DNA from: a virus
Length of the DNA: 64,000 nt
Reading direction: 5' to 3' (one strand)
IMG/VR virus record: IMGVR_UViG_3300032236_000679
Span: 59,006-123,005 of that record
Of this stretch, positions 32,501-62,993 are shown in pieces. Position numbers and translations under genes: made by a program. Below the pieces are notes generated by a model. The model saw only the letters and a list, made by a program, of their open reading frames with translations. It searched no databases and was not told the DNA's origin. How positions within the stretch are numbered: the stretch's first letter is position 1; every line of letters begins with the position of its first letter.

Positions 32501-35439
32501 ACAGAACATTTGATGAAAATGGTTTCTTGAACATCTTAGGCGATCAAGCAATTGATACTAATCTATACAGCACATTTAAAGACAATCAACTGGGTATTAG
32601 ACCAGAAGACATGATTACTGATGGTGCTAGTTATGTTGACACATACAACAGTTATGCACCTGAAGAATTTGTTCCAGGTTTGATGATGGATAGTTTGGAT
32701 ATCAGAGTTAAGACTCTAACAGATATTCAAAGTTTCAAATCACCAGACATTGTTGTTGTTTCAAAGTATGCAGATGATATTACTTCAACTTTTAGTTTTG
32801 ATCCTAAGATCACTGACACTAAATTACCAGTTGGTGGAATTGAAGAATTAACTGTTGTAAACGATATAGCAGGTCTACAAATTGAAGGTGTTGATTATAC
32901 CGTTGATTGGAAAAATCAATCAATTACATTCTTCCATGCTCCCGCTATTCCCAGTGCAGTTTTCATTGTTATAATTGGCGCAAGTGGTCAAAAAATAATT
33001 GCAGATGCAAAATTCATTGGCGATGGTGAAACTACAGAATTTGAAATCGTTGATTCTGTTCTTGAAAATGTTCAGCAGGCATATGTTAAGGTTGATGGTG
33101 AAAAAGTCACTAACTGGTCACTGGCATCTGCAAGTTACGGCAGTCAGGACTACTTGGCCTTAGGATTTGGAAACACTGGATTTGAAGATCAATACTGGGA
33201 TCAAAATAGATTCCCAGTTGCGTTAACTTGGCAACCATTACATGATTATTTCACTGATGAATTTGTCAGTTATGGTGCTGCAACTTTCAGAGTTGTGCGT
33301 CCATTTACAAGCAAATATGAATTTGACACAGATAATCTAATAAGTGCAAGTAGAACATTTATCAGATTCCTACGTCCACCCGCTAAAGATTCTGTAATTC
33401 AAATTCACTTGTTTGATTTAAATCTAGCCATTAAGGCATATAGTGAAATTGTAAATCAAGAAGTTGTATTGCCCAGTGATTTCCAACAGGGAACAGCAGG
33501 ATTTGAAATTAAACTTCAAGAGCCTGTTCAATATTTGCAACCATGGGAAGCAAGAATTGATGTTACAGTAAACGGTCTATACTTAGAACCTACTAATCAA
33601 GCATACTATTCTGGCAATGGTAAAACAAAGAATTACTCTTTACCTAAAACTAGAAACGTGGATGTTAATGTAATAACAAATTCTGATATTGTTGCAATTG
33701 TAGACGGAGTAGTTAAACTAAATCCATCTGAATACACTGTCTTTAGAAATGGCATTGATGTTCCTGTTGTACAGTTTAATACTGCTCCAGCAGAGGGATC
33801 AAAAATTATTATTAGCAATAAGAGCACTTCAAACTATTATGTGTATAACGAAGACTCTATCTTAATTAAACCATCTTACCCATTATTTCCCAATGATAAG
33901 ATAAAGATTAAGATTTATAGTAATCATGATCAGTATGACACAAGATCTCAAGTATTCAGTGCTGTTAATAATAATGAAACTTCGGTTCAAGTTCAAAATT
34001 TCTCAGGATGGGATTCAATTGCTTATGATTCAGTGAATTATGTCGAGCAAGGATTAGTAGATGGTACACCTACTATTAGTCCTTTTGCAGTACATCATCG
34101 TGATGTGATAACTGGAACAACATCAACTGCTGTAACTGATTATGGCTTTGCTGATGGCGCCACAGTTGGATTTGACACTTTAACTTGGGACACAAATCAA
34201 GTTACCTATGTAACTGATTATCACTTGGATCTTCCTCTACAAGGTACTGCTGAAGTTAAGATAAATGGAGTAATTAAATCCTTCTTAACAGATTATACTG
34301 TTCCAGATGTTGCAACTATTCACTTCTTATCAAAAGTATTAACAACTGACACTATTACAATTGTTGATCAGTATGATACATTGATTTCAGTAGTTTCTAA
34401 GTTTACAACAACAACTGCAATTGATATCAATGCTCTTAACATAATGGTTGATAACATTCAGTTGATTAGAAATGTTGATTATACACTAACATCTGCATAT
34501 CAAATTAACTTTAATACAGCAACAGTTCAAATCTTACCATCTGCTTACTTGCAAGTATTCTCACAAACTACTGTTGCTGATCCTGCTGCAAGTTTTGGAT
34601 GGGATGATGAATATACTATTACAATTGAACCTGCTGGTACTGTTGTAAGTCTAGGATTTGATCTCAATGGTTGGGACAAGAGTGTATGGGATAATGAAAG
34701 AACTAATACTATTGCGGCTCCAACTTACACCTTAAGTAGACCTGTTAATAATATTAACAATATCACAGTTGCACTAAACGGTGTAGATTTGAATGCATAT
34801 TATGATTATGTATTAACTACTCCAACACTGTTAAGATTGAATCCTGATTTGTCAATTACAGCAAATGATATAGTACTAGTTTCACATATCAGCGAAGATT
34901 CAAGAATACAAAATATTGAATTTAGAATCTTCAAAGGTATTGCTGACACTTACGAATACTTGGCAATTGGAGATACAACTACAACAACACTAAGCCAAGA
35001 TCTATATCAAACTGATGAGTGGATATATGTAACCGACATCAGTATATTCAGTAATCCAGATCCTGCACAGTCAAAGCCTGGTATTGTTTATATAAACGGT
35101 GAAAGAATTACTTTCTATATACTGGATATTATGAACAAGAGATTGGGTCAGTTGCGTCGTGGTACACAGGGAACAGGTACTCCAGTTGTTCATGATGCTG
35201 GCTTAAGAGTATACGATGGCGGATCACACACTGAAATTCCAGAATCGAGAGATCAATATACTGTTGCTGATCAAGATATTATCTTAATTAGTAAGAAAGG
35301 CAACGAGCATTTGGTACAAAATGGACAGATTTATCGTCGTGGTAAACTTTGGTTAGATCCTGGAAAAACTACGCCTGCTAATGGAACCGGTATATTGAAT
35401 TCAAATACAATACAAGCAAAATTCTTAAAGGCAATATAA
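20503..35439 (+). CDS. Giant (4,978 aa) baseplate wedge/receptor-binding virion protein
   Basis: Single ORF after gp6 containing FG-GAP-like beta-propeller blades, ChtBD3/CBM5-12-like W.P...Y...D.V.Y repeats and GDG.T..F repeats. Confidence 0.65.
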   Translation: MVKKSLDNVPKINQSTKNKKLSNEFLPTVFRTNTNRRFLNATVDQLIQEPRMTSIYGYIGRQDISPNYKPEDAYVRETESYSQFYQLEPGLVINQRIAGTNRFKKTNAYNYVDLLNGIALQGGINTDHSRLFSNEYYNYEGFVDLDKLINYSKYYWVPTGPKTLEVNGYNADQNKTEVIFLENLTVRRPVEPNTTGNAIANKPVGLIGYQFDQISNKVNPTLNLVRGRTYTFDVDQLGHSFWIQTEPGLGEGIGYQENIFKREVYGVDNNGAEIGKVTFRVPFSDEQYGIETLSKFTDVDLVTDIAYTDIQGVSYEEFIKTNTIDGTRSLTTKKIVMINKDPASWGDVVEDQRYGIWQLQNNNGILNLAFVSAWPTGTKIFVKEGRQYGNVNVVKNSQGIIFKEPYITAKLDTLYYQDGVDASVFGEIRLINIDPEQATINIETRVLNQSSYTSPNNVEFTNGLKVVFRGYVQPTEYAGKEYVVEGVGTGIKLIPWDNLITPDPNNPNLGDGYDAETEAYDTINYDLALNAPLRKDYVVINRASIDGNAWSRTNRWFHEDVIRYASTFNNPTAAVVLDNAFRGIRPIIEFDANLQLFNHGNKFAGQVTAIDTTVTDIANQVEGYSPYVLIDSNGNYFSDNVALENGTYVIFTQERYENTKGRIYQVSNIIPHVPAQRTKLTTQFAPNNTTLLHLNDVSYLYINMKVSGTGILPNTVIKSIDSINSIVTLSQPVVDVTRGTTITFDSNNKQVHLIPVHDMVEGETVVAVSGAKRQNYVYWWHNGNWQYAQQKTSLNQAPLFDIFTLDGISFGNGDYYPSTTFAGSKLFGYREGTGTRDSELGFPLSFRSIGNIGDIVFENYYDTEQFHYSLNQTDQIVDVSTGYAHENNPADLTFKLRNNWIKIKDFSKQYIQKKFIASDAHKNNFLIDVKFNQNSQNEKSLFVYVNGTELTYSQDYTLLGQKNHVYVSLNSDLTTGDVLVVRIFGTPNSSKEIYTLPKNLTDNSLNETFTSLTLGQIRNHLVEIADNSLLFKGEAAGVNNFRDIDYKRVPGRILQHSAGVHIAQLFFNNETTNIVKAIEYSRKAYRNFKNQFFSLLSSMEFDNFDDPRACLDQLFDEISFNATMDQSFYYTDMLPVGSNSFTFNEYLIADTNYKKFNVINTFDIQNPNYRSVLVYQKKSNSNYGVQLLKDTDYTFDGYQIDILTTLDINDNIIIYEYESTKGCMVPATPTKLGLYPKFTPGLYLDDTYLGRQEQDGTYTRFPRPMIQGHDGSKIAAFNDFRDAIIVEFEQRVYNNLNVEYINDPAISFNGVEPGAFRNTEYSMDEWTRLLSGSFLEWAGSNSVDVFNNLFTNNARSNDPFSFNYSQGVDAIYNEGVPGYWRGIYKYFFDTDRPHTHPWEMFGFSQKPAWWEARYGAAPYTSGNEILWKDAEVGLIYQHGYDAYIDSRYARPGATKIIPVDEHGTLLAPISSVVINLKTQTASSSWRFGDQSPQETAWRRSSDYPYSIIEAWALAKPAQFCTWSLNRHDLIRVDALDQIINPTTGKRNITLAISDEDKYIPGSNIWLRDRLAGLNIDVQTNFVEIFENLGINLVYKMSSYTDKNYIEVIAEQASPNSTNSGIIVPKENYDIVLTKSAPVGLSTYSAVIIKKSGGVFSVYGSDNNKPYFTIIPRKFNGNFYNIKVSQSTAIVRVDDEETIDIIPYGQQFTSKQQIVDFLISYGAYLQSIGFTFGTINPNETEIQFSNSTRDWANSSKQFLYWTEQGWDDSVVISLTPAGTQINFNSGFGVVDDLTNSYSGVRLSNSDDRILQTKEYSTFREGTNFNLVVRDQTKGIHLVDLYTVAYEHTLVFDNVTVFNDIIYQPNLGNRQYRMKVNGFKTRDWDGSLYAPGFLVNHRDVELWQPITDYYKGDIVEHKNAFFTAKYFIPGAPKFKEMDWLPVNSELLGKKLIPNMAFNAQQFENFYDVDTFDVNSTADMQARNSTGFVPRNYLDDLGLNTISQHKFYLGMIREKGTNAVLNAFLRAKLPYVDNNVSVTEQYAVRLASYGGINDVSDVELSLANSTKLNGSIVVEFIDNNETKSTLWNSYRPKDLLIKPANYDKNFFSLTESYPLQVGTGGPVLPQDVDTSVFDIQKIYNLSMGGLGFDMTEGYGEGSRIWVASDLENKWNVYRLCGNENIVITSVSVINNTNELEFTTDRPHGLKFNDNILIKKGIATGKISVNMSGFYRINSVGPTVFRTPIYTGAVTTSGKMNAMLYKLKSVRYQDRTAFSSDLPPGGWKTGDKAWINGSEGNWELLNLQTNYFLSQTLTPIFSGDSDNFGNGISMKSTEDVMAVGAPGKDSGAVYIYNKNYYGVWSVSQSIIPENTVANDFGFSVNCNDKNLVITGAPASNSNKGLAYVLKVNNVDSNVLFQVLNPAGLNSGDQFGYDVTSSQDGTWVAVSAPSDNTVYIYKFNKISTPALYSYVAESATEFELPSILLGTGIAADAVKVYLNERILIPSVEYSISGNNVELSISTNNNDVVNIVYEDYYKLITSFSNTEAAGSFGYSIDFNKDGTELAIGAPYLVNPANSNSTNFGAVYLFERTIETFITPSYDKTTLSSAEFASVSSVTLENTPVEPVVYVNGELDTSHSINGKVVTFTNGNLTRSVGYDSIVTVESNTFRLLETKRFGTDQANLYYGSKVKICPTSCSLYVGAKGYNVIQEKSQFLNNGAVVRYVNEARSYGTITTQKNIPTVTGGHSIRINGMKITFTGTNMGDGRTIINWTANTSYLTTNFVRYNSIIYKPTQNFTSGSSFSSTYLTPYRLTIDEIVADINAVKIPGITATKVKNMITISSDSMLAHNKIIINTTDLGTALDDLGLTVFKYYQFIGAQSNQSYTNFGNQFTLDASGNRLLISATQTDNIKVTTFDKGNTTFDAKSTRVYTATYRSGSAYLYEYQGDEYETPSTHGNFAYAQTFNTSKMSTNDYFGTGIALTKNWAIVTALGDGTKAGTVYTYQNKTGAYNWNVERSKLDPVDSRKIARAYLYNDNTKELIADLPVIDPEHGIPVPEAAEQLKYIVNYDPAVYTNSPNTFTFAVDVRSSWAEEHVGQLWWDTNQIKYAEWNQGDLITRFSNWGLSVPNSFASVYEWIESSMTPSEWNVANPTTPSLYTAGEVYSIRVVIDPVTLAPTNKYYFWVANSNANYGMERRDSAIMLQDLIANPRKNDNQPFISVIGTNAIALFNCQDLVDNDTRLHITMHKNQYVNPVHTEWTMFDDGSDLGIASEFLDRLNDSLAGIDNAGKIVPDLSLSEKQRYGLEIRPRQTTFVDNFSARNTWISNVNAVFARYPMVLLRETSILESYDLPPEVDGTSIKLEVSTEIELTYLNKSFYNIGDKILIANDSTVGGWSLRELAPSSFDSTVLEWKIVKVKSYDLRDYWTYSDWYSPNISRTVAVDKIVDYDYEIADINPLVGQIIKVKNGTGGNWKLVLVRANSLELVAQQNSTIQLTKSLYDNISAGFGIDNQSFEIKGFAKDNALEFRKIFDITVNKLLNKELRAEFKSIMTAMFDDITTQFKQNDWLMKTSLVNVKNEVRSLNQIPVYVKENADTVLNFIEEVKPFHTKVKEYINSYNQLDLAGFDTTDFDLPSYFNKNTQRYRQPQLKKVYNEELGRWVDTPNVVDTGIWYIDPLDPTQTLQNTKAVYQPWIDNHKYQILYVDLDNAGTGYKQNDTTVVIRGDGRGATAEAFVKNGSIYAINVTNTGYNYTYATIEILGSGTGATAYAKLGNGKARTFSTTIKFDRFTYQTSTKEWAPNTSYSLTDLITYNGSVYRLATDTNLIDLQSTGITTGDKFSFDNLIELVVKVWEPHKKYAKDTIIVYNHVPYVALTDFTSGRYFEYNTDVTVTNSISWQPATYYAVNTVVSYNGVAYKVISNFTSPNSFTLDNLLTVYDIAKYPGGYFDDAASRVWSYYNPKSGMPGKDLAQVMSGVEYPGVNVIGPTFDQKLGFGFELYERIAYDDRTFDENGFLNILGDQAIDTNLYSTFKDNQLGIRPEDMITDGASYVDTYNSYAPEEFVPGLMMDSLDIRVKTLTDIQSFKSPDIVVVSKYADDITSTFSFDPKITDTKLPVGGIEELTVVNDIAGLQIEGVDYTVDWKNQSITFFHAPAIPSAVFIVIIGASGQKIIADAKFIGDGETTEFEIVDSVLENVQQAYVKVDGEKVTNWSLASASYGSQDYLALGFGNTGFEDQYWDQNRFPVALTWQPLHDYFTDEFVSYGAATFRVVRPFTSKYEFDTDNLISASRTFIRFLRPPAKDSVIQIHLFDLNLAIKAYSEIVNQEVVLPSDFQQGTAGFEIKLQEPVQYLQPWEARIDVTVNGLYLEPTNQAYYSGNGKTKNYSLPKTRNVDVNVITNSDIVAIVDGVVKLNPSEYTVFRNGIDVPVVQFNTAPAEGSKIIISNKSTSNYYVYNEDSILIKPSYPLFPNDKIKIKIYSNHDQYDTRSQVFSAVNNNETSVQVQNFSGWDSIAYDSVNYVEQGLVDGTPTISPFAVHHRDVITGTTSTAVTDYGFADGATVGFDTLTWDTNQVTYVTDYHLDLPLQGTAEVKINGVIKSFLTDYTVPDVATIHFLSKVLTTDTITIVDQYDTLISVVSKFTTTTAIDINALNIMVDNIQLIRNVDYTLTSAYQINFNTATVQILPSAYLQVFSQTTVADPAASFGWDDEYTITIEPAGTVVSLGFDLNGWDKSVWDNERTNTIAAPTYTLSRPVNNINNITVALNGVDLNAYYDYVLTTPTLLRLNPDLSITANDIVLVSHISEDSRIQNIEFRIFKGIADTYEYLAIGDTTTTTLSQDLYQTDEWIYVTDISIFSNPDPAQSKPGIVYINGERITFYILDIMNKRLGQLRRGTQGTGTPVVHDAGLRVYDGGSHTEIPESRDQYTVADQDIILISKKGNEHLVQNGQIYRRGKLWLDPGKTTPANGTGILNSNTIQAKFLKAI

Positions 35440-44805: not shown

Positions 44806-46157
44806 CAAAAAGTAAACTTAAGGACGAAACTTTTCTAGAATATAAAAGACGTGTACTTGATACTAAGAGTGCAAGTTTCTGCGGAGCAAAATGGTACAAT
44901 GCAACTATTTGGCTTGGTAGTGGCATGACTACAAGTTGTCACCATCCTCTACCTCATAAAGTCTCTGTAGAAGAAGTTGTTGCAAATCCTCGTGCATTAC
45001 ATAATACGCCTCAGAAGAAAATGGAACGTCTTATGATGCAGAAAGGGCAACGTCCCAGTGGATGTGAATACTGTTGGAAAATTGAAGACAGTAGTCCAGA
45101 AGCCATCAGCGACAGACCTTATAAGTCAATGATATATACAGAACATGAACTGTGGTTTGCCAATGCGATTCCCAGTGACACAGATATTAATTTAAGAACT
45201 TTAGAGATAGCATTTGATCGTACATGTAACTTTGCTTGTAGTTATTGCAACCCTGCTTTCTCAACAACTTGGGCAAAGGATATAAAACAGAATGGACCTT
45301 ACAACAATCTTACTAGCGATGGTCGTAACCATTTTACTCATGAGCATGGTAGTAGCCAGCTTTATCGCGTGGGCGAAGAAAATCCGTACGTGGAAGCCTT
45401 CTTCAAATGGTGGGAATCAGATCTTAAAGACACCCTCCAAGAGCTTCGGATAACTGGCGGCGAACCAACTATGAGCGCAGACTTTTGGCGCTTGATTGAT
45501 TGGTTCAAAGATAATAAAAGTAATGTGAAACTTGCAATCAATAGTAATCTTGGTGCAAAGCAAGATTTAATTGATCGTCTAATTGCAGCAAGTCATGACA
45601 TCCCACACGTAGAACTCTATACCAGCTGCGAAGCAACAGGATTATCTGCTGAATATATTCGTGACGGTATGGTGTGGCGAGACTGGATTGACAATGTCAA
45701 CAGGTTGGTCGAAGAAGGGAACTTTAAAGCCCTACATGTCATGGCTACGATTAACGGACTTTGTTTGCCAACAATAACAGACTTCTTAGATCTTATTATG
45801 TTAAGCAAAGAACAGTATGGTCGTAATTGGCCCACTGTGACATTAAACATTCTTCGCTTTCCCAGTTTTCAAAGTCCTCTTGTATTGCCAGTTGAATATA
45901 GACAAACAGTAATTACAAAATTGCGTAAGTGGTATATGAAGAATGGAGAAAGTCCTTTACTGCATGAGATGGAACGTGAACATATTCTACGACTGATAAC
46001 TTATCTTGAATCTGTTGAAAGTCCACATGCTGGTGCAAGTGCCATTGAGGATTTACAGAAAGATTTTAAACATTTCTATACACAGTACGATCAACGTCGC
46101 AATAAGAACTTTGAAAAGACATTTCCTGAATTAAAGGCATGGTATAATGGCATATAA
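44802..46157 (+). CDS. Radical SAM/twitch protein (2 of 5)
   Basis: CNFACSYC, ITGGEP; CGAKW...SCHHP...CEYCW; ATGA overlap start. Confidence 0.85.
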   Translation: MTKSKLKDETFLEYKRRVLDTKSASFCGAKWYNATIWLGSGMTTSCHHPLPHKVSVEEVVANPRALHNTPQKKMERLMMQKGQRPSGCEYCWKIEDSSPEAISDRPYKSMIYTEHELWFANAIPSDTDINLRTLEIAFDRTCNFACSYCNPAFSTTWAKDIKQNGPYNNLTSDGRNHFTHEHGSSQLYRVGEENPYVEAFFKWWESDLKDTLQELRITGGEPTMSADFWRLIDWFKDNKSNVKLAINSNLGAKQDLIDRLIAASHDIPHVELYTSCEATGLSAEYIRDGMVWRDWIDNVNRLVEEGNFKALHVMATINGLCLPTITDFLDLIMLSKEQYGRNWPTVTLNILRFPSFQSPLVLPVEYRQTVITKLRKWYMKNGESPLLHEMEREHILRLITYLESVESPHAGASAIEDLQKDFKHFYTQYDQRRNKNFEKTFPELKAWYNGI

Positions 46158-47454
46158 TTATAATGGTAAAGAGCCAATTAAAATAGCAGTTGATGATCTA
46201 AGTGACAAGCACAAGGATCTCATTTTTGAAAATAAAACATTCTGTATGCTGCCATGGATTCATCTGCATAGTTTTCCAACAGGGGAAGCATATCCCTGTT
46301 GTAATACAGAAATGAAATACAAAGTTGGTAACACCAATCAACAAAGCATTAAAGAAATTTGGGATGGAACTGAAATGCAAGACGTTAGAAAACGTATGCT
46401 TGCAGGCGAAAAAGTAGAAGGTTGTAGTCGTTGTTATGAGCAAGAAGATTCTGGGTTCTTCAGTATGAGACTCAGCAGTAACAAACACTTTGGACATCAT
46501 ATTGCATTAACAGATAATCCCACACCTGACATGAAACTTGTCTATTGGGATATTCGTTTTAGCAATTTGTGTAATTTACGTTGTCGTAGTTGTGGACATA
46601 TCTTCAGCAGTAATTGGTATGATGATCAAGCCAAATTAGTTGAAATGGAACATGGCAGTGGAGAGGGTTGGAAAAGTAGACATCAGCGTTTGTACTTTGC
46701 TGGGCGCAGTGAAGATGATATGTGGGATCAACTCAAAGATCAAATTGATAATCTTGAACAAGTTTATTTTGCAGGTGGCGAACCTCTTATTATGGAAGAG
46801 CATTATCGTCTTCTAAATGAATTAATTAAACGTGGTCGTACTGATGTTAGACTTATATACAACACTAACTTTACTGAACTTGCTTACAAGAAAACTAATG
46901 TGCTGAATTTATGGAAAGAATTCAAAAGTGTTAGTGTTGGTGCCAGTTTAGATGCTATGGGCATGAGAGCAGAATACATTCGTAAGAATTGTAATTGGAG
47001 CCAAATTGAACATAACAGAGAAGAAATGTTGCAGATATGTCCCAATGTAGATTTTTATATCAGTCCCACTGTCAGTATTATGAATGCATGGCATGTCAGT
47101 GATTTTCATCGTGCATGGGTTGATATGGGCTTACTAAAGCCGCAAGATTTAAACATTAACATATTGCAGGATCCTGCATATTTTAGAATTGATGTATTAT
47201 CTCAGAAGTTTAAAGAAGAGATAAAAGCAAAGTGGGAAGATCATCTCACATGGTTACGACCTTTAGATGGGTTGACACGTGCCACTACAGGATTTGAAAG
47301 TGCAATTAATTTTATGATGGCAGATGACAAGAGCCATTTACTTCCAAAATTTTGGGATCGCACTAATAAATTAGATAAGATACGTAATGAGTCGCTACTA
47401 GGCGCAATACCGGAGTTATATCATGAGCAAATTATGCATTCTACCATGGGTTAG
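46147..47454 (+). CDS. Radical SAM/twitch protein (3 of 5)
   Basis: CNLRCRSC, FAGGEP; CMLPW...PCC...CSRCY; ends TAG TGT TGA. Confidence 0.85.
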   Translation: MAYNYNGKEPIKIAVDDLSDKHKDLIFENKTFCMLPWIHLHSFPTGEAYPCCNTEMKYKVGNTNQQSIKEIWDGTEMQDVRKRMLAGEKVEGCSRCYEQEDSGFFSMRLSSNKHFGHHIALTDNPTPDMKLVYWDIRFSNLCNLRCRSCGHIFSSNWYDDQAKLVEMEHGSGEGWKSRHQRLYFAGRSEDDMWDQLKDQIDNLEQVYFAGGEPLIMEEHYRLLNELIKRGRTDVRLIYNTNFTELAYKKTNVLNLWKEFKSVSVGASLDAMGMRAEYIRKNCNWSQIEHNREEMLQICPNVDFYISPTVSIMNAWHVSDFHRAWVDMGLLKPQDLNINILQDPAYFRIDVLSQKFKEEIKAKWEDHLTWLRPLDGLTRATTGFESAINFMMADDKSHLLPKFWDRTNKLDKIRNESLLGAIPELYHEQIMHSTMG

Positions 47455-53900: not shown

Positions 53901-55013
53901 ACATGGTTACCAGACTTAGATCAAGTTGAATATACACAATGCTGGCCCAGTAATGATCAAGAGAAGGGCGATACTTTTCTAATTCATATCCCAACTTATC
54001 TACGCACTGGTAAATTTGAATTTAATTTTGATCACGAAAGTGTACTTAGAGTACCATGGCCTCCTTTTGTATATAATGAAGATAGTTTAGCAGAAGCATT
54101 GAACAATCATCCGCGTATGTCAAGTTTGTATGTTGCCTACTATAAACAGAATTCAGTTATTAATAGATTCCCATCACCTTGCTTATGGGATAAACGACCT
54201 GTTGTTGGATTAAATCTATGCAACAGTGTAAGTCTTGTTCCGCGAGATTGTGTGGTAAAAGAAGAAATATACGAGTACCCTTATCTTAAACGACATGCAA
54301 ATATGGCTAGAAATAGTGAATTGGATGTTGTCTTTATTCATAATGGTGAAAAAGATTCAGGCGTAAATCTAACTAGATGCAATTTAACTATGCCCAGCAA
54401 TATGAATTTGAGAATAAGCAGTGGTGTAAATGGCAGACTTAAAGCATACCAAACTGCTGCTGAATTAAGCAGTACAGATTGGTTCCTTGCTGTATTTGCC
54501 AAGTGTCATATGACGGAATCATTTAGATCTTTCTCATGGCGTCCTGACTATTGGCAGAAACCCAAGCATTATATCTTCCATAATCATAATGTTGATCTTG
54601 ATCTAACGTACGGACACATGGCACCAATTGCATATAATAAAAAGTTAATGCTTGAGAATAAAGGCGGTCTTGACATGACACTGGCTCAGGAACATGCTGT
54701 TATACCAATTGTTCTAAGTGAGACACAACTTACTGATCCATGGGATACTTGGCGTACTGCTTTCCGCGAAACTGTTAAGTTGCTTTACTATTCAAAGACT
54801 GACGACAGCATTGAATTAAAATATAGATTACACAAGTGGCTTAATGCTGAAGAGCAATGGTCTAAACACAATCCATGGTATCAATATGGATCAAAAGATG
54901 CAAAGGATTTCTTTGATAGTGTTGATGGCGATTGGGGATGGATTATGGTTACAAACGAATGGGATTGGCTGCGTAAGCGATTTAATGCACTATATCCTAC
55001 ACAGCAAACTTAA
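50976..55013 (+). CDS. Large protein with 71-aa tandem repeats and a C-terminal GT-like domain
   Basis: About 11 copies of EWVWETDSRIDYTNFDFTWLPDAW...H.FCM.G..QLSYTRLYN; C-terminus (ELDVVFI...WRTAFRETVKL) parallels the 42462 protein. Confidence 0.7.
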   Translation: MYDTFYFDKDLDRAKQQAIMESQTEYAWVLYKGVDYSNFDLRFVPSKFKKSYAHTWGSHNNQNSHTTWLLPIEQIRKNQSVEIEQHDIVLPAKNILGWQWITDKRIDYTNFNFNWLPDEWDWDKNHAFTMKGTTKLSYTFLQKEGAVETVYHPAELEFMSDIVDDEWVWETDSRIDYTNFDFTWLPDAWDIDKVHCFCMQGLEQLNYTRLYNSKHKQTESKFHATNLKFKPNAAADEWVWETDSRIDYTNFDFIWLPDAWDINKEHCFVMQGTTQLSYTRLYNAKATIVETKYHKSSLTFKPNAAADEWVWETDSRIDYTNFDFTWLPDAFDLDKDHYFCMDGCEQLSYTRLYNTKHERTESKYHKSNLRFLPGSATDEWVWETDSRIDYSNFDFNWLPNEWDKDKVHYFCMRGCKQLSYTRLINLKHKSKGNKYHSADLMFKPGAAADEWVWETDSRIDYTNFDFTWLPDEWDMNKDHLFCMNGLTQLSYTRLYNKKKERVSKKFHKSTLKFKPKAAAEEWIWETDSRIDYTNFDFTWLPDAFDCDKVHEFCMRGKEQLSYTRLYNAKCKQIESKFHSADLDFIPGAAKDEWVWETDSRIDYSKFDFTWLPDAWDRDKDHYFCMRGLEQLSYTRLYNSKFKQTTAKFHMSTLEFNPGAANDEWVWEKDERIDYTGFDFTWLPDAWEKEYAHCFCIQGKEQLSYTKLINIKHNVQGKNKFYESNLQFIDKTSKFTREEIEHIRDLPEWIWEIDRRIDYTNFNFDWLPDAWEKEYSHWFCMQDKEQLSYTRLINTKHNEKDKNKFYAADLKFTQPTTIIEWPNFAEAMLTGDDWFDCLVNWVVQQNIQQEWVWVVDSRIDYTKFDFNWLPDRDGLPYIHCFSMQGHEKLSYTWLVNTNSLRDRQYKFIKSNLKFLKPHADTVVLDMGFNNNNFVHYQKKLRFTGTMEAMLSSAVKRATNEWLHVISTCCDYMMFDFTWLPDLDQVEYTQCWPSNDQEKGDTFLIHIPTYLRTGKFEFNFDHESVLRVPWPPFVYNEDSLAEALNNHPRMSSLYVAYYKQNSVINRFPSPCLWDKRPVVGLNLCNSVSLVPRDCVVKEEIYEYPYLKRHANMARNSELDVVFIHNGEKDSGVNLTRCNLTMPSNMNLRISSGVNGRLKAYQTAAELSSTDWFLAVFAKCHMTESFRSFSWRPDYWQKPKHYIFHNHNVDLDLTYGHMAPIAYNKKLMLENKGGLDMTLAQEHAVIPIVLSETQLTDPWDTWRTAFRETVKLLYYSKTDDSIELKYRLHKWLNAEEQWSKHNPWYQYGSKDAKDFFDSVDGDWGWIMVTNEWDWLRKRFNALYPTQQT
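51471..53174 (+). repeat. 213-nt tandem repeat array (8 copies in exact register)
   Basis: The GAATGG(G/A)T(A/G)TGGGAA anchor recurs at 51471, 51684, 51897, 52110, 52323, 52536, 52749 and 52962. Confidence 0.9.
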
Positions 55014-56079
55014 CTACTTCAACAACTTTCTCAACTTCTGCATCAGTCATATGCCAATGATTAGGCAAACTAATGCATCTACCTTTTAGATTAGATGCAT
55101 TTGGACAATAATCAACTTTTGTTTTATATGCAGTATAATGATGCAGAGGTTTATCGTAATGACTTGCAAATTCAATATTATGTAATGATAGGAAAGTTTT
55201 TAATACTTCAGGGTTGGTAGGAGCAATTTCAAAAACATAATTTGTATGAGTGCAGCAATAATTGCGATTTGGCATTTCAATTTTATCTTCAAGTTCTAAA
55301 CGATAGTACCAAGATATTTCACTTTTGCGACGCATATTATCATCAAAGTTTTGATATTTGACATTTAAAACTGCTGCTTGTACAGCGTCAATACGACAAT
55401 TAAGTCCTGGCTGTATAACATCTCCGTTGTGTTTACCTTGCACACAGAATGTTTTTAGTTGTTCAACTGTATAGTTTTTACTGACAATGGCACCTGCGTT
55501 ACCCATTGCCCCAAGATTCTTAAGAGGATTAAAACTAAGAGCAAGACTATCGCAGTAATCAATTTGATGAAAGTAATCATAAAACAATTCAAAACTCTGT
55601 GCCGCATCAACTATAAGTTTAACTTTATAATGATCGCACAATCTTTTAAATCTTGTTAGATCAACGCCTTGCCCATATAGATCAACTACAACTACTGCGC
55701 TGACATTTTTAAGTCTATCAAGATATTCTGCTAGCCGTGTAAAATCCATAAGCCAGCATTTATCGATATCGACAAAAGCAGGAATAAGTCCTGCGGCAAC
55801 AACCGCATTAGCAGTTGCTACATATGTCATTGCAGGAACAAGTACTGTACTACCTTTGGGTAAATTGGCAATTTGTAAAGCAGTAATAAGAGCATTAGTA
55901 CCTGAATTTGTAGCAACGCAACTGGCATTGTTATACAAACGACTGACTAAACTTTCAAATTCATCAACTGCTTCGTTAGCAAAATATTGTCCGCTTGTGG
56001 ACACAGTCATTATTGCATTTTGAATTTGATTGCGTTGATCTTCGTATTGCTCTTTTAAATTATAAAATTTAATAGACAT
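54997..56079 (-). CDS. DegT/DnrJ/EryC1/StrS family sugar aminotransferase
   Basis: ATNSGTNAL, VPAMTYVATANAV, IVDAAQS, LSFNPLKNLGAMGNAG (PLP lysine). Confidence 0.9.
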   Translation of the reverse strand: MSIKFYNLKEQYEDQRNQIQNAIMTVSTSGQYFANEAVDEFESLVSRLYNNASCVATNSGTNALITALQIANLPKGSTVLVPAMTYVATANAVVAAGLIPAFVDIDKCWLMDFTRLAEYLDRLKNVSAVVVVDLYGQGVDLTRFKRLCDHYKVKLIVDAAQSFELFYDYFHQIDYCDSLALSFNPLKNLGAMGNAGAIVSKNYTVEQLKTFCVQGKHNGDVIQPGLNCRIDAVQAAVLNVKYQNFDDNMRRKSEISWYYRLELEDKIEMPNRNYCCTHTNYVFEIAPTNPEVLKTFLSLHNIEFASHYDKPLHHYTAYKTKVDYCPNASNLKGRCISLPNHWHMTDAEVEKVVEVVKFAV

Positions 56080-59688: not shown

Positions 59689-60318
59689 ATGAGTTTTTTA
59701 GAAAATAAATTTGCTATTGTACGTGGTTATATTGATCCTCCCATAATGGATTTATTTTATCAGTATTGTAAATTACAAGTAAACAGTGCAGGATTTAAAA
59801 AAATGAATTCTGAATCTTATAATCCAGATTGGGATGGACGTTTTGGTGATTCACTTGTGGCAAATACATATGCTAGATATGCAGATCCCCTGTGGGAAAG
59901 TTTGTTATTATCCAGTGTTAAACCATTAGAACATTGCACAGGCTTATCAATTGTTCCTAACTTTAGTTACTGGAGATTTTATCAAGAAGGGGATGTTCTA
60001 ATTAAACATTCCGATAGACCTGGCTGTGAAATCTCTGTTACTTTGTGTATTGGGTATGAAGGAGAGAATTGGCCGCTGTTTATAGAAAGCGAAAACTATA
60101 CAGGTCCTATTTTGTTAGAACCTGGAGATATGTTAGTCTATAAAGGTCGTGAAGTACCTCATTGGCGTGAAGAATTTAAAGGAGTGAATCAAGCACAAGT
60201 TTTTCTGCAATATGATATAGCAGGCAATGAGGATAATAACTTTTTAGATAAAAAACCCATGCCTGCTATTCCAATTACATACTCATTAAATTTTGGATTA
60301 CCTTCGAATAAAAGTTAA
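59689..60318 (+). CDS. 2OG-Fe(II) oxygenase (prolyl hydroxylase-like)
   Basis: LIKHSDRPGCEISVTL (HxD)...GDMLVYKG...PHWRE (distal His). Confidence 0.8.
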   Translation: MSFLENKFAIVRGYIDPPIMDLFYQYCKLQVNSAGFKKMNSESYNPDWDGRFGDSLVANTYARYADPLWESLLLSSVKPLEHCTGLSIVPNFSYWRFYQEGDVLIKHSDRPGCEISVTLCIGYEGENWPLFIESENYTGPILLEPGDMLVYKGREVPHWREEFKGVNQAQVFLQYDIAGNEDNNFLDKKPMPAIPITYSLNFGLPSNKS

Positions 60319-60914
60319 TCCTCATATAGATCTTCCCATGTATCCATTGTCTTAGAGTCCACAACTGTTCCTTCAAAGTCAGGATTAAGAAAGACTTCTT
60401 TGCCATTTCTGCCGTCGCCGTACCATTGATAATAAGCATTGTCTTCAGATAATATTTCAAACTGATTGGAATAGACTAATGCAAGCACAGTAAGATCATC
60501 TTTGGCGATCTCAATGACATAACTATTTCTTCCACAACCGCCTGCATACTGCATACAAGGGCCATGTTTAATGTCATTGTGTTGCAGTAACCAAAGGAAC
60601 TCATTCTTGTAACGGAAATGAATTCTAATTGGTAATGCTGCTTTTAATCGTTCCTCATCTTCAGGTGTTAGAATGTCAATTGAGGCATTACCGTTTTCAA
60701 GTCGTAGTAATGCGTTCTTGAACTTTAATGCACCTTTTGTGCGGACATTGAGGGGAGTTTCTTTTGTGGTCCAAGGGATGTTTGCTTCGACGTGATCAAC
60801 GTAATACGTCTTGCCCTTAGCCATTATGATCCACATTGGGATGGAACTGTCTTCTAAATGCTTTTTATTAAAATGAAATACAATATCTTTACATGCAAGT
60901 TCAATCTAAGCCAT
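60315..60914 (-). CDS. Hypothetical protein with an in-frame TAG at codon 3 (amber-readthrough candidate)
   Basis: AAGGAG RBS, 8-nt spacer, ATG GCT TAG ATT GAA..., then an open frame (IELACKDIVFHFNKKHLEDSSIPMWII...) continuous with track ORF 60315..60836; 199 codons in total. Confidence 0.7.
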
Positions 60915-60933
60915 TTTGTTTTCTCCTTATTAT

Positions 60934-61587
60934 TTAATTTAGCATCAATTCATCTACAAAGTCTAATAATAATTTATGATGGTGCCCTGCATGCCAATGT
61001 GATTTAATATAAGCATAGGGCTTATCATACCAAAAATCCATGCTTTCTGGATGACAACCAATTAATCCAATATGATTCTGTATGATTGCCATGGGATCTT
61101 GATTGGCATAACGTGCTACAGTTTTAAATTTAGTTTCATCACCGACAAAAGCACAACCATCATAAAAGAACATATTTTCTTTTTGATTATTCCATATTAC
61201 TGGTGCAACTGTACCATATGAACGTCTTATATCTGCGTTGGGTTGTGTTATATATTGCACAGTATCAACGCTATCTAATATATCAAACCATCGACTACCT
61301 GCCCAATACGCACCCATACATATACCGAGATAGTGTCCGCCATTTGCAACATAATCTGCTATGGCATTCTCTGCTCGTCTTCTAAAGAAATTATCATATG
61401 TTGAATAGTCTCCAATACCTCCTGGAAACGCAACACAGTCATATGAACGGAATTTTTCATTCTTGATATCGTCAACTGACATAATATCAATAGAATATTT
61501 TGAAGATAATGCTTGTATCATGCCATCGCAACATTGCGTTGAGCATTCTGGGTGATGTTGAAATAGTGCTATTCTAGATTTGATCAC
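60934..61587 (-). CDS. BPL_N-like class I glutamine amidotransferase-fold protein
   Basis: VAFPGGIGD, GGHYLGICMGAY (nucleophile Cys), GLIGCHPE (His-x-Glu). Confidence 0.75.
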   Translation of the reverse strand: MIKSRIALFQHHPECSTQCCDGMIQALSSKYSIDIMSVDDIKNEKFRSYDCVAFPGGIGDYSTYDNFFRRRAENAIADYVANGGHYLGICMGAYWAGSRWFDILDSVDTVQYITQPNADIRRSYGTVAPVIWNNQKENMFFYDGCAFVGDETKFKTVARYANQDPMAIIQNHIGLIGCHPESMDFWYDKPYAYIKSHWHAGHHHKLLLDFVDELMLN

Positions 61588-61601: not shown

Positions 61602-61673
61602 TGGCGCTTCCGGGGGGAATTGAACCCCCACTTGCAGTTTTAGAGTCTGCTAGCTCTCCACGAGCACGGAAGC
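61602..61673 (-). tRNA. tRNA with CUA anticodon (amber suppressor), tRNA-Pyl-type compact cloverleaf
   Basis: GCTTCCG T GCTC GTGGA GAGC T AGCAGA CTCTAAA ACTGCA AGT GGGGG TTCAATT CCCCC CGGAAGC G CCA; 72 nt; encoded CCA; anticodon at 61641-61643. Confidence 0.88.
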
Positions 61674-61681
61674 ATATTGTA

Positions 61682-62941
61682 TTAGTCGTTATCGTAATAA
61701 GCGAAACGACCAAATGCGGGTTCAATATTCTTATTATGACGATTGTTAATAATCCAAACAGTGTCACAATAATCTGGATCTCCCCAGTCACCCCAAATTT
61801 CACCATCAGTAAACATTAGCAGTAACTTAGGTTCGATACCTTCGCCCTTCATAAAGTTCCAGCAGACAGTGGGATCTGTTCCGCCAAAACCCTTAATCTC
61901 ATAATCCATAATGTCATCACTGCCATGAGCAGTAAATTCCTGAGGATTATGTACCTGCGTATCCCAGCACCACAAGTGAATACGATGATCTTCAAACGTA
62001 TCCATAATAGCCTTAACCTCACTGAAGAAGTCACGTGCCATTTCGTCAGTGATGGAACCTGAAGTGTCAAGACCAATACAAACATCAATTTGTGTCTGTT
62101 TTAGCATTGAAGGCAGTGAAAAACCAGTTTGGAAGTTCTTCTTGCTAGGTACAGCATATGTATAATCATTCTTAACAGTGCTTTGGATCTGCTGACGAAT
62201 GAATTCACGCCAGTCGATCTTAGGCTCAGTCAAATCTTTGATCATACGCTTCAGACCGCTGGGCAAGTTACCTGCACCCGATGCCTGAGCAGCACTGAGC
62301 AGTGCTTCTTTAAACTCGTCTTTAATCTGTTGACGTTCAGCATCGCTCAGTTTAGGACGACCATTGCCCTTACCATCCTTCTCTTCATCATCGCCATCAC
62401 CTTCGCCGTCAAGGTGATCGTCCAGCATCATCTCAGCAAGTTCGTCCAGCGAGATCTTCTGAACATTCTTCATGAGATCATCGTACACGGCTTCCCATGT
62501 CCAGCCCTCATACTTGCGATCATAGAGCACAGGCACAACGGTAATTTTCTTACCGAGGTTGTTATTGATACAGTCTGCGTTAACAACATAGTCCATTGCG
62601 ATGTTGGAAATGCGACGGTCACGGCTACCAGTACGGCTCATATGGTCATAAGCACAATGTAGAAGTTCGTGGCAGAACAGGAACATCATCTGTCCAGTGT
62701 CCAGCATATTGATGAACTTTGAATTGTAATAGAAGTGACGACCATCAGTAGCAGCAGTCTCGCACCAAGTGTCAGCATTGACAAGCTTGAGGCGCATGGC
62801 AAGATTACCAAAGAAACCATGTCGGAGGACCAGTGCTACACGAGCAGCCAAAATCTGCTGCTTGGCCTTTTCGTCCAAAATTGGATCCATTTTCTCAACA
62901 ATACGGGACTTTTTAGCGTTTTTGGGCATTGGCGTAGACAT
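61682..62941 (-). CDS. Putative metallopeptidase plus VWA domain protein (DUF2201-type)
   Basis: ETAATDG...HELLH (HExxH)...N.AMDYVVN; MIDAS DTSGS; GFGGTD; FTDG. Confidence 0.85.
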   Translation of the reverse strand: MSTPMPKNAKKSRIVEKMDPILDEKAKQQILAARVALVLRHGFFGNLAMRLKLVNADTWCETAATDGRHFYYNSKFINMLDTGQMMFLFCHELLHCAYDHMSRTGSRDRRISNIAMDYVVNADCINNNLGKKITVVPVLYDRKYEGWTWEAVYDDLMKNVQKISLDELAEMMLDDHLDGEGDGDDEEKDGKGNGRPKLSDAERQQIKDEFKEALLSAAQASGAGNLPSGLKRMIKDLTEPKIDWREFIRQQIQSTVKNDYTYAVPSKKNFQTGFSLPSMLKQTQIDVCIGLDTSGSITDEMARDFFSEVKAIMDTFEDHRIHLWCWDTQVHNPQEFTAHGSDDIMDYEIKGFGGTDPTVCWNFMKGEGIEPKLLLMFTDGEIWGDWGDPDYCDTVWIINNRHNKNIEPAFGRFAYYDND

Positions 62942-62965: not shown

Positions 62966-62993
62966 ATAATAGCAGAACGTGAGATATTGTCAA
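62966..62993 (-). promoter_or_regulatory. Sigma70-type promoter driving VWA, tRNA-CUA, BPL_N and the amber gene
   Basis: TTGACA-16 nt-TATTAT with extended TGn; AAGGAG RBS before the ATG at 62941. Confidence 0.65.

What the first reader, a model, noticed from the sequence alone, without database searches (positions are those of the whole stretch)
61602..61673. Phage-encoded amber (CUA) tRNA with the tRNA-Pyl cloverleaf
Seen in sequence: a 72-nt minus-strand tRNA with a 7-bp acceptor stem, only ONE nucleotide before the D-stem, a 4-bp D-stem, a 5-nt D-loop, one nucleotide, a 6-position anticodon stem (4 Watson-Crick pairs flanked by A.A mismatches), loop CUCUAAA, a 3-nt variable loop, G discriminator and encoded CCA. 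Established: this 7/1/4-5-4/1/6-7-6/3/5-7-5 layout, the 72-nt length, the CUCUAAA loop, G1-C72 and G73 are the hallmarks of pyrrolysine tRNA. Ordinary amber suppressors derived from Gln/Tyr/Trp tRNAs have a 2-nt connector, a longer D-loop and a 5-bp anticodon stem. Unlike Methanosarcina tRNA-Pyl, this one keeps GG in the D-loop and a canonical UUCAAUU T-loop, so it looks like a hybrid. Inference: the phage carries its own amber decoder of an unusual structural class, and the charging enzyme is unknown. No PylRS or pylBCD genes are in the window, and the TctC gene hints at a proteobacterial host, not a typical Pyl user.
Basis: partly seen in the sequence, partly recalled or inferred. Interest (0 to 1): 0.92.

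Follow-up and report, generated by a model that had tools for sequence, protein, structure and literature searches.

The report
Compact amber tRNA keyed to one gene
A freshwater jumbo phage carries a real UAG-reading tRNA with the same shrunken cloverleaf layout as pyrrolysine tRNA, but it looks like a private key for one neighbouring gene whose third codon is UAG, not a pyrrolysine system.

Summary
The 72-nt minus-strand tRNA at 61602-61673 is real. ARAGORN finds it and Rfam tRNA scores 42.1 bits (cut-off 29).

I found 20 distinct 72-nt variants in related freshwater phage contigs. All carry CUA, and 14 of 22 stem pairs show compensatory changes.

The pyrrolysine reading fails on four counts:
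- No PylRS-like gene in five related fragments or five 93-100% complete genomes of the wider group.
- The discriminator is G in 10 variants and A in 10.
- GG and the UUCAAUU T-loop are kept.
- The outer "pairs" of the 6-position anticodon stem are mismatched in 18-19 of 20 variants.

The phage uses the standard code. Its one detectable in-frame UAG is codon 3 of the gene at 60315-60914, 690 nt downstream on the same strand. Of 79 homologues, 71 keep this early TAG and 72 have a CUA tRNA (72-77 nt) within 3 kb. A cultured Rhizobium phage has the same pairing.

Best reading: a dedicated suppressor that gates one gene, charged by a host synthetase; the compact shape is convergent with tRNAPyl.

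This scan had already noted the tRNA-gene pairing on other DNA. I found no publication describing it.

The parts
61602..61673 (-). 72-nt tRNA, anticodon CUA, compact core, G73, encoded CCA
   Evidence: ARAGORN. Rfam tRNA 42.1 bits. Cloverleaf MFE fold, z -3.1. Covariation in 20 variants.
60315..60914 (-). Amber-gated gene: ATG GCT TAG ATT..., then 196 codons after the TAG. The protein has no known family.
   Evidence: Sequence and translation. Early TAG kept in 71 of 79 homologues. The peptide between the TAG and the first later ATG holds invariant residues.
60906..60908 (-). The in-frame UAG (codon 3), followed by A at +4
   Evidence: In 55 distinct start contexts the next codon is ATT 44, ATC 6, GTA 4, AAA 1, so the next base is always a purine.
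60923..60928 (-). Shine-Dalgarno AAGGAG, 8 nt before the ATG at 60912-60914
   Evidence: An SD at about 6-9 nt before the ATG appears in the homologous starts I read.
60934..61587 (-). BPL_N / class-I glutamine-amidotransferase-like gene between the tRNA and the gated gene
   Evidence: Pfam PF09825 2.9e-14 and PF00117 5.9e-5. Its homologues sit inside tRNA arrays in related jumbo phages.
61682..62941 (-). DUF2201 metallopeptidase/VWA-like gene ending 9 nt before the tRNA
   Evidence: Pfam PF13203 5.5e-40 and PF09967 6.8e-15. Syntenic in L012, L013, L039 and L162.
62966..62993 (-). Sigma-70-like promoter match (TTGACA-16-TATTAT, 11 of 12, TG) ahead of the gene string
   Evidence: This is a consensus match only. 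Promoter-like sites in the region were not more frequent than in shuffles.

Best explanation
The element is a functional phage amber-suppressor tRNA. Its job is to read one particular UAG: codon 3 of the conserved gene at 60315-60914, in the same minus-strand gene string (DUF2201 gene, tRNA, GATase-like gene, gated gene).

Without the tRNA, host RF1 would stop translation after Met-Ala. With the charged tRNA, the 198-residue protein is made. The tRNA and the codon therefore form a one-codon translational lock and key in a phage that otherwise uses the standard code.

The tRNA is most probably charged by a host synthetase. Which residue it carries matters little, because homologues without the TAG have Met, Thr or Ala at that position. 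From E. coli precedent with CUA anticodons, Lys or Gln is the likeliest. It is not pyrrolysine.

The compact core (1-nt connector, 5-nt D-loop, short variable region, 4 Watson-Crick pairs in the anticodon stem) is a variant within a broad family of phage CUA tRNAs of 72-78 nt that all accompany this gene family. It resembles tRNAPyl and mt-tRNASer(UCN) by convergence.

Shown: the tRNA is real and conserved; it co-occurs with the early TAG; the standard code holds elsewhere; no PylRS is present in phage genomes. Inferred: suppression actually occurs, charging is by the host, and the module serves as a gate or timer.
For: 1. tRNA quality and covariation.
2. All 20 distinct 72-nt variants carry CUA and an encoded CCA. 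The search pattern left the anticodon free.
3. The gene start is SD, ATG, GCT, TAG. There is no ATG, GTG or TTG for the next 23 codons, although invariant family residues (C5, F10-H11-F12-N13-K14, H16, D19, P23) lie there.
4. Every locus I checked with the 72-nt tRNA and enough flanking DNA also holds this gene. The gene starts with the early TAG in all but L166.
5. Of 79 IMG/VR homologues, 71 have the early TAG. Of those, 65 have a CUA tRNA within 3 kb, and so do 7 of the 8 without the TAG. In 834 kb of related phage DNA fetched for other reasons, only two CUA tRNAs lie away from the gene.
6. A scan for SD + ATG + up to 6 codons + stop + at least 80 open codons finds TAG exactly once in each of G000-G004 and once in the complete 360,683-bp genome G007. 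Each hit is this gene. The counts for TAA are 0,0,0,0,0,1 and for TGA 1,1,0,0,0,2.
7. Standard code elsewhere. Code-11 ORFs cover 90-94% of the DNA. TAG ends 4-11% of genes. No TAG-specific read-through shows in cross-genome tblastn. Baseplate and virion genes in the window read normally.
8. No PylS_Cterm or PheRS-like hit (TIGR02367, PF01409) in G000-G004. No TIGR02367 or GluRS/GlnRS (PF00749) hit in five 93-100% complete genomes that carry the module.
9. TAG-less homologues have M, T or A at the TAG position.
10. Cultured Rhizobium phage RHph_I1_18 has an unannotated ORF with TAG at codon 6, followed 24 nt later by an annotated 78-nt tRNA(cta).
11. The base after the TAG is always a purine. 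From established knowledge of context effects, this favours suppression.
Against: - Nothing is experimental. There is no evidence that the tRNA is made, processed or charged, or that the protein is produced.
- The window's contig is only about 35% of a roughly 350-kb genome. The complete genomes I could search belong to the wider group and carry 75-76-nt tRNAs. The two near-complete close relatives (ENA scaffolds behind L162 and L164) could not be searched.
- Seven TAG-less homologues still keep a CUA tRNA nearby, so the tRNA may have a further role.
- A tRNA that reads UAG would also read through the phage's and the host's own TAG stops. The five TAG-terminated genes of at least 100 aa on this contig have a second stop within 0-4 codons, but n = 5, against 42-47% for TAA- and TGA-terminated genes.
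- The quick protein tree does not settle whether the compact form is derived or ancestral.
Confidence: 0.72

Rival explanations
1. It is a genuine tRNAPyl or another orthogonal tRNA. A PylRS-like enzyme, encoded by the host or in unseen phage DNA, charges it with pyrrolysine or another special residue that is inserted at the UAG.
For: The segment lengths equal those listed for tRNAPyl: 1-nt connector, 5-nt D-loop, 6-position anticodon stem, 3-nt variable loop (PMC1851642). G1:C72, G73, G10:C25 and G51:C63 are present in the window's copy. L164 forms all six anticodon-stem pairs. The contig is incomplete.
Against: - No PylS_Cterm or class IIc hit in ten phage genomes or fragments.
- G73 appears in 10 variants and A73 in 10. 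G73A costs about 100-fold with D. hafniense PylRS (PMC1851642).
- The outer stem positions are unpaired in 19 of 20 and 18 of 20 variants.
- GG in the D-loop and the UUCAAUU T-loop are kept.
- Homologues of the target have M, T or A at that position.
- The same gate is served by canonical 74-78-nt tRNAs, including in a phage of Rhizobium. That Rhizobium lacks a Pyl system is my own knowledge, not tested here.
Confidence: 0.04
2. It is a general suppressor. Its main role is genome-wide or host-wide UAG read-through, either for host takeover or as a step towards TAG recoding as in code-15 phages. The early TAG in the neighbouring gene is then only one consequence or a sensor.
For: Suppressor tRNAs in standard-code relatives are proposed as a step towards recoding (bioRxiv 10.1101/2021.08.26.457843). 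Seven TAG-less homologues keep a CUA tRNA nearby. TAG is the rarest stop, and TAG-ended genes here have close back-up stops. Beta-type tmRNA genes lie beside the gated gene in L210, L221 and L241, which could help cope with read-through products.
Against: No other conserved in-frame TAG appears in 381 kb of close relatives or in a complete 361-kb genome. In G007 the CUA tRNA stands apart from the 42-gene tRNA array and about 1 kb from the gated gene. The linkage to this one gene family holds across proteins only 41-88% identical.
Confidence: 0.13
3. The ATG-NNN-TAG is a two-codon mini-ORF. The main ORF is started by re-initiation at the next codon (mostly AUU), and the nearby tRNA has nothing to do with it.
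For: AUU or AUC follows the TAG in 50 of 55 distinct contexts. AUU is a known weak bacterial start codon (established knowledge, e.g. infC).
Against: GTA (4 contexts) and AAA (1 context) also follow the TAG. A CUA tRNA lies within 3 kb in 65 of the 71 TAG-bearing loci, and such tRNAs are rare elsewhere. Ile/Val at that position is also explained as a conserved residue of the domain.
Confidence: 0.05
4. It is a tRNA-like element that does not decode, for example a decoy, a processing signal or an attachment site.
For: Its tRNA score is low compared with the other phage tRNAs (42 against 56-72 bits). The anticodon stem carries mismatches.
Against: The loop [C/U]UCUAAA is invariant, with U33 and A37. 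CCA is encoded, GG and the T-loop are intact, and all four stems covary. A matching codon lies next door.
Confidence: 0.03

Closest known systems
tRNAPyl (pylT) of Methanosarcinaceae and Desulfitobacterium
   Same: CUA anticodon with loop CUCUAAA, 72 nt, one nucleotide between the acceptor and D stems, 5-nt D-loop, the same count of positions in the anticodon arm and variable loop, G1:C72, and G73 in the window's copy.
   Different: No PylRS or pylBCD nearby or in related complete phage genomes. The outer anticodon-stem positions are mostly mismatched. G18G19 and T-psi-C-type loops are retained. The discriminator switches between G and A. The decoded position tolerates M, T or A in homologues.
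Mammalian mitochondrial tRNASer(UCN)
   Same: The same compact layout, and G18G19 and T-psi-C are retained (PMC7609411, PMC1851642). This is the closest structural analogue.
   Different: Sense anticodon, organellar translation system, no sequence relationship. The likeness is convergent.
Suppressor (Sup-CTA) tRNAs of TAG-recoded 'code 15' phages (crAss-like, Lak and others; bioRxiv 10.1101/2021.08.26.457843)
   Same: A phage-encoded CUA tRNA in a phage whose host presumably uses the standard code. Stop-codon reading is proposed there as a way to regulate expression.
   Different: Those phages have many in-frame TAGs, mainly in structural and lysis genes. Here one codon in one gene is affected, and the structural genes use the standard code.
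Amber-gated gene with its own suppressor tRNA
   Same: The same protein family and the same TAG at codons 3-6 next to a CUA tRNA, in phages that otherwise use the standard code.
   Different: This window's lineage uses the 72-nt compact form of the tRNA. I saw nothing about tRNA shape in the earlier notes returned to me.
prfB (RF2) autoregulation through an early in-frame UGA
   Same: An early in-frame stop codon makes the yield of a protein depend on the balance between termination and an alternative decoding event.
   Different: prfB uses a +1 frameshift and senses RF2 itself. Here a dedicated tRNA competes with RF1, and the gated protein's function is unknown.

Membership tests
tRNAPyl | CUA anticodon | tested here: met
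   All 20 variants carry CUA.
tRNAPyl | [quoted passage not shown] | tested here: met
   U8 only; D-loop GUGGA. Constant in length in 20 variants.
tRNAPyl | [quoted passage not shown] | tested here: inconclusive
   The nucleotide counts fit. However, pair 23:41 is unpaired in 19 of 20 variants and pair 28:36 in 18 of 20. Only L164 pairs all six, and L162 pairs the lower one.
tRNAPyl | Absence of G18G19 and of T54-psi55-C56 (PMC1851642) | tested here: not met
   The D-loop holds GG and the T-loop is UUCAAUU, UUCAACU or UUCGAUC in all 20 variants.
tRNAPyl | Identity elements G1:C72 and discriminator G73 (PMC1851642, PMC7609411) | tested here: inconclusive
   G1:C72 is invariant. G73 is present in the window's copy, but across the variants it is G in 10 and A in 10.
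tRNAPyl | A cognate PylRS (pylS) in the same genome | tested here: not met
   TIGR02367 and PF01409 find nothing in G000-G004. TIGR02367 finds nothing in five 93-100% complete genomes of the wider group. The host genome is unknown and not testable here.
tRNAPyl | The UAG encodes a residue needed for function | tested here: not met
   The TAG precedes the conserved domain. TAG-less homologues have M, T or A at that position.
Suppressor tRNAs of TAG-recoded (code 15) phages | Many in-frame TAG codons in phage genes, chiefly late genes | tested here: not met
   Code-11 ORFs cover 90-94% of the DNA. There is one early TAG per genome. Baseplate and virion genes read normally.
Amber-gated gene plus own suppressor tRNA module | A TAG within the first few codons behind SD + ATG, followed by a long conserved frame with no other start | tested here: met
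Amber-gated gene plus own suppressor tRNA module | A CUA tRNA close to the gated gene, in a genome that otherwise uses the standard code | tested here: met
   The tRNA lies 690 nt upstream on the same strand. 72 of 79 homologous loci have a CUA tRNA within 3 kb.
Amber-gated gene plus own suppressor tRNA module | The protein is made only when the tRNA is present | not testable with these tools
   Needs expression and proteomic tests. No RNA run was listed.

The most novel reading that the evidence does not exclude
The compact 72-nt tRNA is a naturally orthogonal tRNA. Its shrunken core hides it from host synthetases, and an unrecognised phage factor charges it, possibly with a non-standard residue. 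That factor could be the fold-orphan gated protein itself, which would close a positive-feedback loop, or the GATase-like neighbour that sits in tRNA arrays in related phages. The locus would then be a self-contained, PylRS-independent code-expansion module from phages of Proteobacteria.
Probability: 0.06. Interest if true: 0.92.

Novelty: new variant of a known kind. Interest (0 to 1): 0.7.

Why it matters
- **Purpose of phage suppressor tRNAs.** Suppressor tRNAs have been noted in phages that use the standard code, with no known purpose (e.g. PMC8386662). Here the tRNA has a concrete and testable target: a single conserved UAG at the start of one gene.
- **tRNA structure.** tRNAPyl was long treated as structurally unusual. 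This phage lineage is a further natural case of the compact core, after tRNAPyl and mt-tRNASer(UCN). It arose in a bacterial translation setting and keeps the normal D-loop/T-loop contacts.
- **Recurrent D-arm shrinkage.** Related 73-nt forms sit inside clades of 74-76-nt forms, which suggests the D-arm has shrunk more than once.
- **Possible practical use.** If the tRNA is active, this family offers natural compact amber suppressors from phages of Proteobacteria. Its anticodon-stem mismatches may help tune suppression. That makes it of interest for genetic-code-expansion work.
- **Testable now.** The gate can be tested in the cultured Rhizobium phage RHph_I1_18.

Tried and rejected
- **Exact-match search.** A 38-nt piece of the tRNA gave no hit in IMG/VR. 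Degenerate patterns were needed.
- **Isotype of origin.** Global alignment of seven CUA tRNAs against the other ARAGORN-predicted tRNAs of these loci gave only generic identity of about 0.70-0.74, spread over many isotypes.
- **Function of the gated protein.**
  - Pfam, NCBIfam, PHROGs and PADLOC gave no hit.
  - The AlphaFold models are confident (pLDDT 84 for the whole protein, 92 for residues 1-85).
  - The N-domain has no PDB match above Z 3.6.
  - The C-domain (residues 91-167) gives only generic ferredoxin-like, ACT or RRM-like matches at Z 5-6.
  - BFVD returned only uncharacterised phage proteins.
  - A WW-like motif gave a weak NEDD4L hit, E 5.6e-4. I treat it as a lead only.
  - The ESM Atlas gave no score above 0.85.
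- **Whole-record search of the ENA scaffolds** behind L162-L164 (255-353 kb) was not possible.
- **Sequencing runs.** No RNA holder was listed, and only DNA contigs were on offer. I laid no reads.
- **Cellular genomes.** Six relatives of the N-domain were found, all on MAG contigs assigned to unrelated phyla, which I take to be mis-binned phage DNA. They gave no host clue.
- **Ancestral or derived.** The protein tree is the quick IQ-TREE version with a midpoint root. The 72-nt label clusters (3 changes against 17.2 in shuffles), but the direction of change is unresolved.
- **tRNAPyl covariance model.** I did not build one. tRNAscan-SE is not installed.
- **Release factors.** The RF-1 domain family was found in only one of the five complete genomes, as a 189-aa ORF in G008. 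There is no general release-factor module.

Full report
**1. Observation**

The minus strand of window 61602-61673 encodes a 72-nt tRNA. ARAGORN finds it as the only tRNA of the window, with anticodon CUA at position 31. The Rfam tRNA model scores 42.1 bits against a gathering score of 29 (E 1.5e-5), and it is the only Rfam hit in 64 kb. The minimum-free-energy fold is the cloverleaf, at -30.6 kcal/mol and z -3.1, with 0 of 200 shuffles as stable.

- a 7-bp acceptor stem, then U alone;
- a 4-bp D-stem and the 5-nt D-loop GUGGA, then U;
- six anticodon-arm positions, of which the middle four are Watson-Crick and the outer two are A.A;
- the loop CUCUAAA and three variable nucleotides;
- a 5-7-5 T-arm with loop UUCAAUU, G73, and an encoded CCA.

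ARAGORN's name 'tRNA-Pyl' is simply its label for any CTA anticodon.

**2. Setting**

The window is bases 59006-123005 of a 123,005-bp IMG/VR virus record that CheckV rates 35% complete, which suggests a jumbo phage of about 350 kb. Ten ordinary tRNAs with encoded CCA lie at the far end of the contig and score 56-72 bits.

The window holds baseplate hub, baseplate wedge and virion structural genes, thymidylate synthase and DHFR. All of them read normally in table 11.

The tRNA lies 9 nt after a DUF2201 metallopeptidase/VWA gene. It is followed on the same strand by a BPL_N/GATase-like gene and then by a 173-aa ORF without family. The only strong promoter-like site stands ahead of the DUF2201 gene.

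**3. A conserved family, always CUA**

Neighbour-gene searches and two degenerate DNA patterns, which left the anticodon free, recovered syntenic and non-syntenic copies. Later protein-based look-ups added more. Altogether there are 20 distinct 72-nt sequences. All are 72 nt long, all carry CUA, and all have an encoded CCA.

On the cloverleaf, 91.4% of cells pair. Fourteen of 22 pairs change on both sides, and no shuffle out of 500 reaches this.

The two outer positions of the six-position anticodon stem are unpaired in 19 and 18 of the 20 variants. L162 pairs the lower one. The distant L164 pairs all six, with two G.U, and has a 3-nt variable loop.

**4. Is it tRNAPyl?**

The published hallmarks are a 6-bp anticodon stem, a 3-base variable loop, one base between the acceptor and D stems, a 5-base D-loop, loss of G18G19 and T-psi-C, and the identity elements G1:C72 and G73 (PMC1851642, PMC7609411). 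The phage tRNA matches the counts and G1:C72. It fails or wavers on the rest:
- GG and a normal T-loop are retained.
- The discriminator is G in 10 variants and A in 10. G73A costs about 100-fold with D. hafniense PylRS (PMC1851642).
- The sixth and first stem pairs are usually mismatches.
- PylS_Cterm (TIGR02367) and the tRNA-synt_2d family (PF01409) find nothing in the own contig or four related contigs.
- TIGR02367 also finds nothing in five 93-100% complete genomes of the wider phage group that carry the same module. The control genomes ring.

The same reviews point out that mammalian mt-tRNASer(UCN) has this compact layout while keeping G18G19 and T-psi-C. That is exactly the combination seen here, so the layout is not diagnostic of pyrrolysine.

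**5. What the tRNA reads**

I checked it.
- An AAGGAG sits 8 nt before ATG GCT TAG ATT GAA....
- After the TAG, the frame runs 196 codons.
- The first 23 of these hold no ATG, GTG or TTG. They do contain residues invariant across the family: C5, F10-H11-F12-N13-K14, H16, D19 and P23.
- Synonymous changes among homologues show that this stretch is translated.

Every locus I checked that carries the 72-nt tRNA and has enough flanking DNA also carries this gene. The gene starts with SD-ATG-NNN-TAG in all but L166, where it starts ATG GAA and the tRNA lies 7.6 kb upstream. In one group (L128, L134, L136, L138, L139, L142) the tRNA lies only 25-40 nt upstream of the gene's ribosome-binding site.

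Database proteins that begin 'MAQIELACK' are TAG read as Q by the gene caller.

**6. Breadth**

IMG/VR holds 332 relatives of the protein, and I fetched 80 loci. The start region is visible in 79 of them:
- 71 have ATG, one to five codons, then TAG, directly before the conserved I/V-E-x-A-C motif.
- 65 of those 71 have a CUA tRNA within 3 kb.
- 7 of the 8 TAG-less versions also have a CUA tRNA within 3 kb.

These tRNAs are 72, 73, 74, 75, 76 or 77 nt long, and I counted 66 distinct sequences before the Rfam additions. Many share a C.A or A.C mismatch at 31:39.

The 73-nt forms (L185, L208) have a 1-nt connector and a 5-nt D-loop. On the protein tree they sit among lineages whose tRNAs are 74-76 nt. 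D-arm shrinkage therefore seems to recur within this tRNA family.

The 72-nt label is clustered on the protein tree, with 3 changes against 17.2 in shuffles. The quick, midpoint-rooted tree does not show whether the compact form is ancestral or derived.

In 834 kb of related phage DNA fetched for other reasons, only two CUA tRNAs lie away from this gene.

The pairing also occurs in a cultured phage. Rhizobium phage RHph_I1_18 has an unannotated ORF reading ATG AGT GAG TTC ATG TAG AAC GAA... It encodes the N-domain only and ends 24 nt before an annotated 78-nt tRNA(cta).

**7. One codon, not a recoded genome**

- Greedy table-11 ORFs cover 94% of the own contig and 90-94% of four relatives. Treating TAG as sense does not lengthen genes.
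- Cross-genome tblastn shows no TAG-specific read-through.
- A scan for SD + ATG + up to 6 codons + stop + at least 80 open codons finds TAG exactly once per genome, and each hit is this gene. That holds in G000-G004 and in the complete, terminally repeated 360,683-bp genome G007. The TAA and TGA controls give 0-2 chance hits.
- In G007 the CUA tRNA stands alone about 1 kb from the gated gene, 14 kb away from an array of 42 tRNAs.
- The five TAG-terminated genes of at least 100 aa on the own contig have a second stop within 0-4 codons, against 42-47% of TAA- and TGA-terminated genes. This fits tolerance of suppression, but n = 5.

**8. Which residue, and why**

Homologues without the TAG have Met, Thr or Ala at that position, or start one residue later. 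So no special side chain is required. That argues for a gate rather than for special chemistry.

No GluRS/GlnRS family gene is present in the five complete genomes, so charging by a host enzyme is the economical assumption. From classical E. coli work on synthetic amber suppressors, which I recall rather than tested here, CUA anticodons tend to attract LysRS or GlnRS.

The base after the UAG is always a purine. From the same literature, that context favours suppression. A paper on 4-bp anticodon stems reports that unpairing the top anticodon-stem pair raised read-through by CUA-bearing tRNAs in E. coli (PMC13092985). The mismatches here may therefore be functional.

**9. The gated protein**

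It has no Pfam, NCBIfam, PHROG or PADLOC match.
- The N-domain (residues 1-85, pLDDT 92) is all-beta. Its best PDB match is only Z 3.6. It carries a WW-like motif, P-M-W...G-x-T-Y-Y-V-x-H...W.
- The C-domain is ferredoxin-like.
- In Atu_ph07 and Phosso, the N-domain forms the C-terminal part of a 173-176-aa protein without a TAG. In Phosso this protein lies two genes from one annotated as peptidyl-tRNA hydrolase.
- Three relatives have a beta-type permuted tmRNA beside the gated gene.

These hints point to translation, but the function is unknown.

**10. Verdict**

It most likely works as the key of a one-codon translational lock on the neighbouring gene. The literature I could search describes suppressor tRNAs in recoded phages and in some standard-code phages, but not this pairing and not a compact Pyl-like phage tRNA.

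Other sessions of this scan have already reported the tRNA-gene pairing on other phage DNA. What is specific here is the compact tRNA class and the evidence that it is not Pyl. Nothing is experimental.

Noticed in passing
window 60934-61587 (-); L067, L086, L104, L119 at about 4001-4645: The BPL_N / class-I GATase-like gene next to the tRNA has more than 590 relatives in IMG/VR. In several related jumbo phages it sits inside large tRNA arrays, flanked within 100 nt by tRNA genes. This suggests a tRNA-related role.
   Followed up: partly
L165:6489-6564; L166:2760-2834: Relatives whose gated-gene homologue lacks the TAG carry an odd tRNA with a mismatched 1:72 pair. In L165 its anticodon is UUA (ochre-reading). 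In L166 a sister copy has an 8-nt anticodon loop that ARAGORN reads as the four-base anticodon UGUA.
   Followed up: no
L210:3791-4259; L221:1712-2101; L241:3519-3936: Betaproteobacterial-type permuted tmRNA genes (120-153 bits) lie within about 1 kb of the gated gene in three phage contigs. In L221 and L241 no CUA tRNA was found within 3 kb.
   Followed up: no
L185:2481-2561; L208:2479-2559: The Rfam 'freshwater-2' RNA motif (70-78 bits) lies on the opposite strand just upstream of the 73-nt CUA tRNA.
   Followed up: no
L269 (MN988519.1, Rhizobium phage RHph_I1_18) about 2477-2814: An unannotated ORF encoding the N-domain only has TAG at codon 6 and ends 24 nt before the annotated tRNA-Pyl(cta). 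The record's gene list misses it.
   Followed up: partly
window 5185-5628 (-), 46147-47454 (+), 54997-56079 (-), and two genes upstream of the window: All five TAG-terminated genes of at least 100 aa on the contig have a second in-frame stop within 0-4 codons, against 42-47% of TAA- and TGA-terminated genes. The sample is small.
   Followed up: partly
window 20503-35439 (+): A single 4978-aa ORF lies among the baseplate and virion genes.
   Followed up: no
L268 (G008:C1:231273-231590): One of the five complete genomes of the wider group encodes a 189-aa ORF with an RF-1 domain (70.9 bits), the size of an ArfB/peptidyl-tRNA-hydrolase-type protein rather than a full release factor.
   Followed up: no
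L270:2207-2728 (Atu_ph07); L271:2195-2725 (Phosso): In two cultured jumbo phages of Rhizobiaceae, the N-domain of the gated protein forms the C-terminal part of a 173-176-aa protein without a TAG. In Phosso this protein lies two genes after one annotated as peptidyl-tRNA hydrolase.
   Followed up: no
L072:2844-2917; L088:1399-1473: Canonical 74-75-nt CUA tRNAs with A73 sit inside full tRNA arrays of related jumbo phages. No gated-gene homologue lies within about 4 kb.
   Followed up: partly
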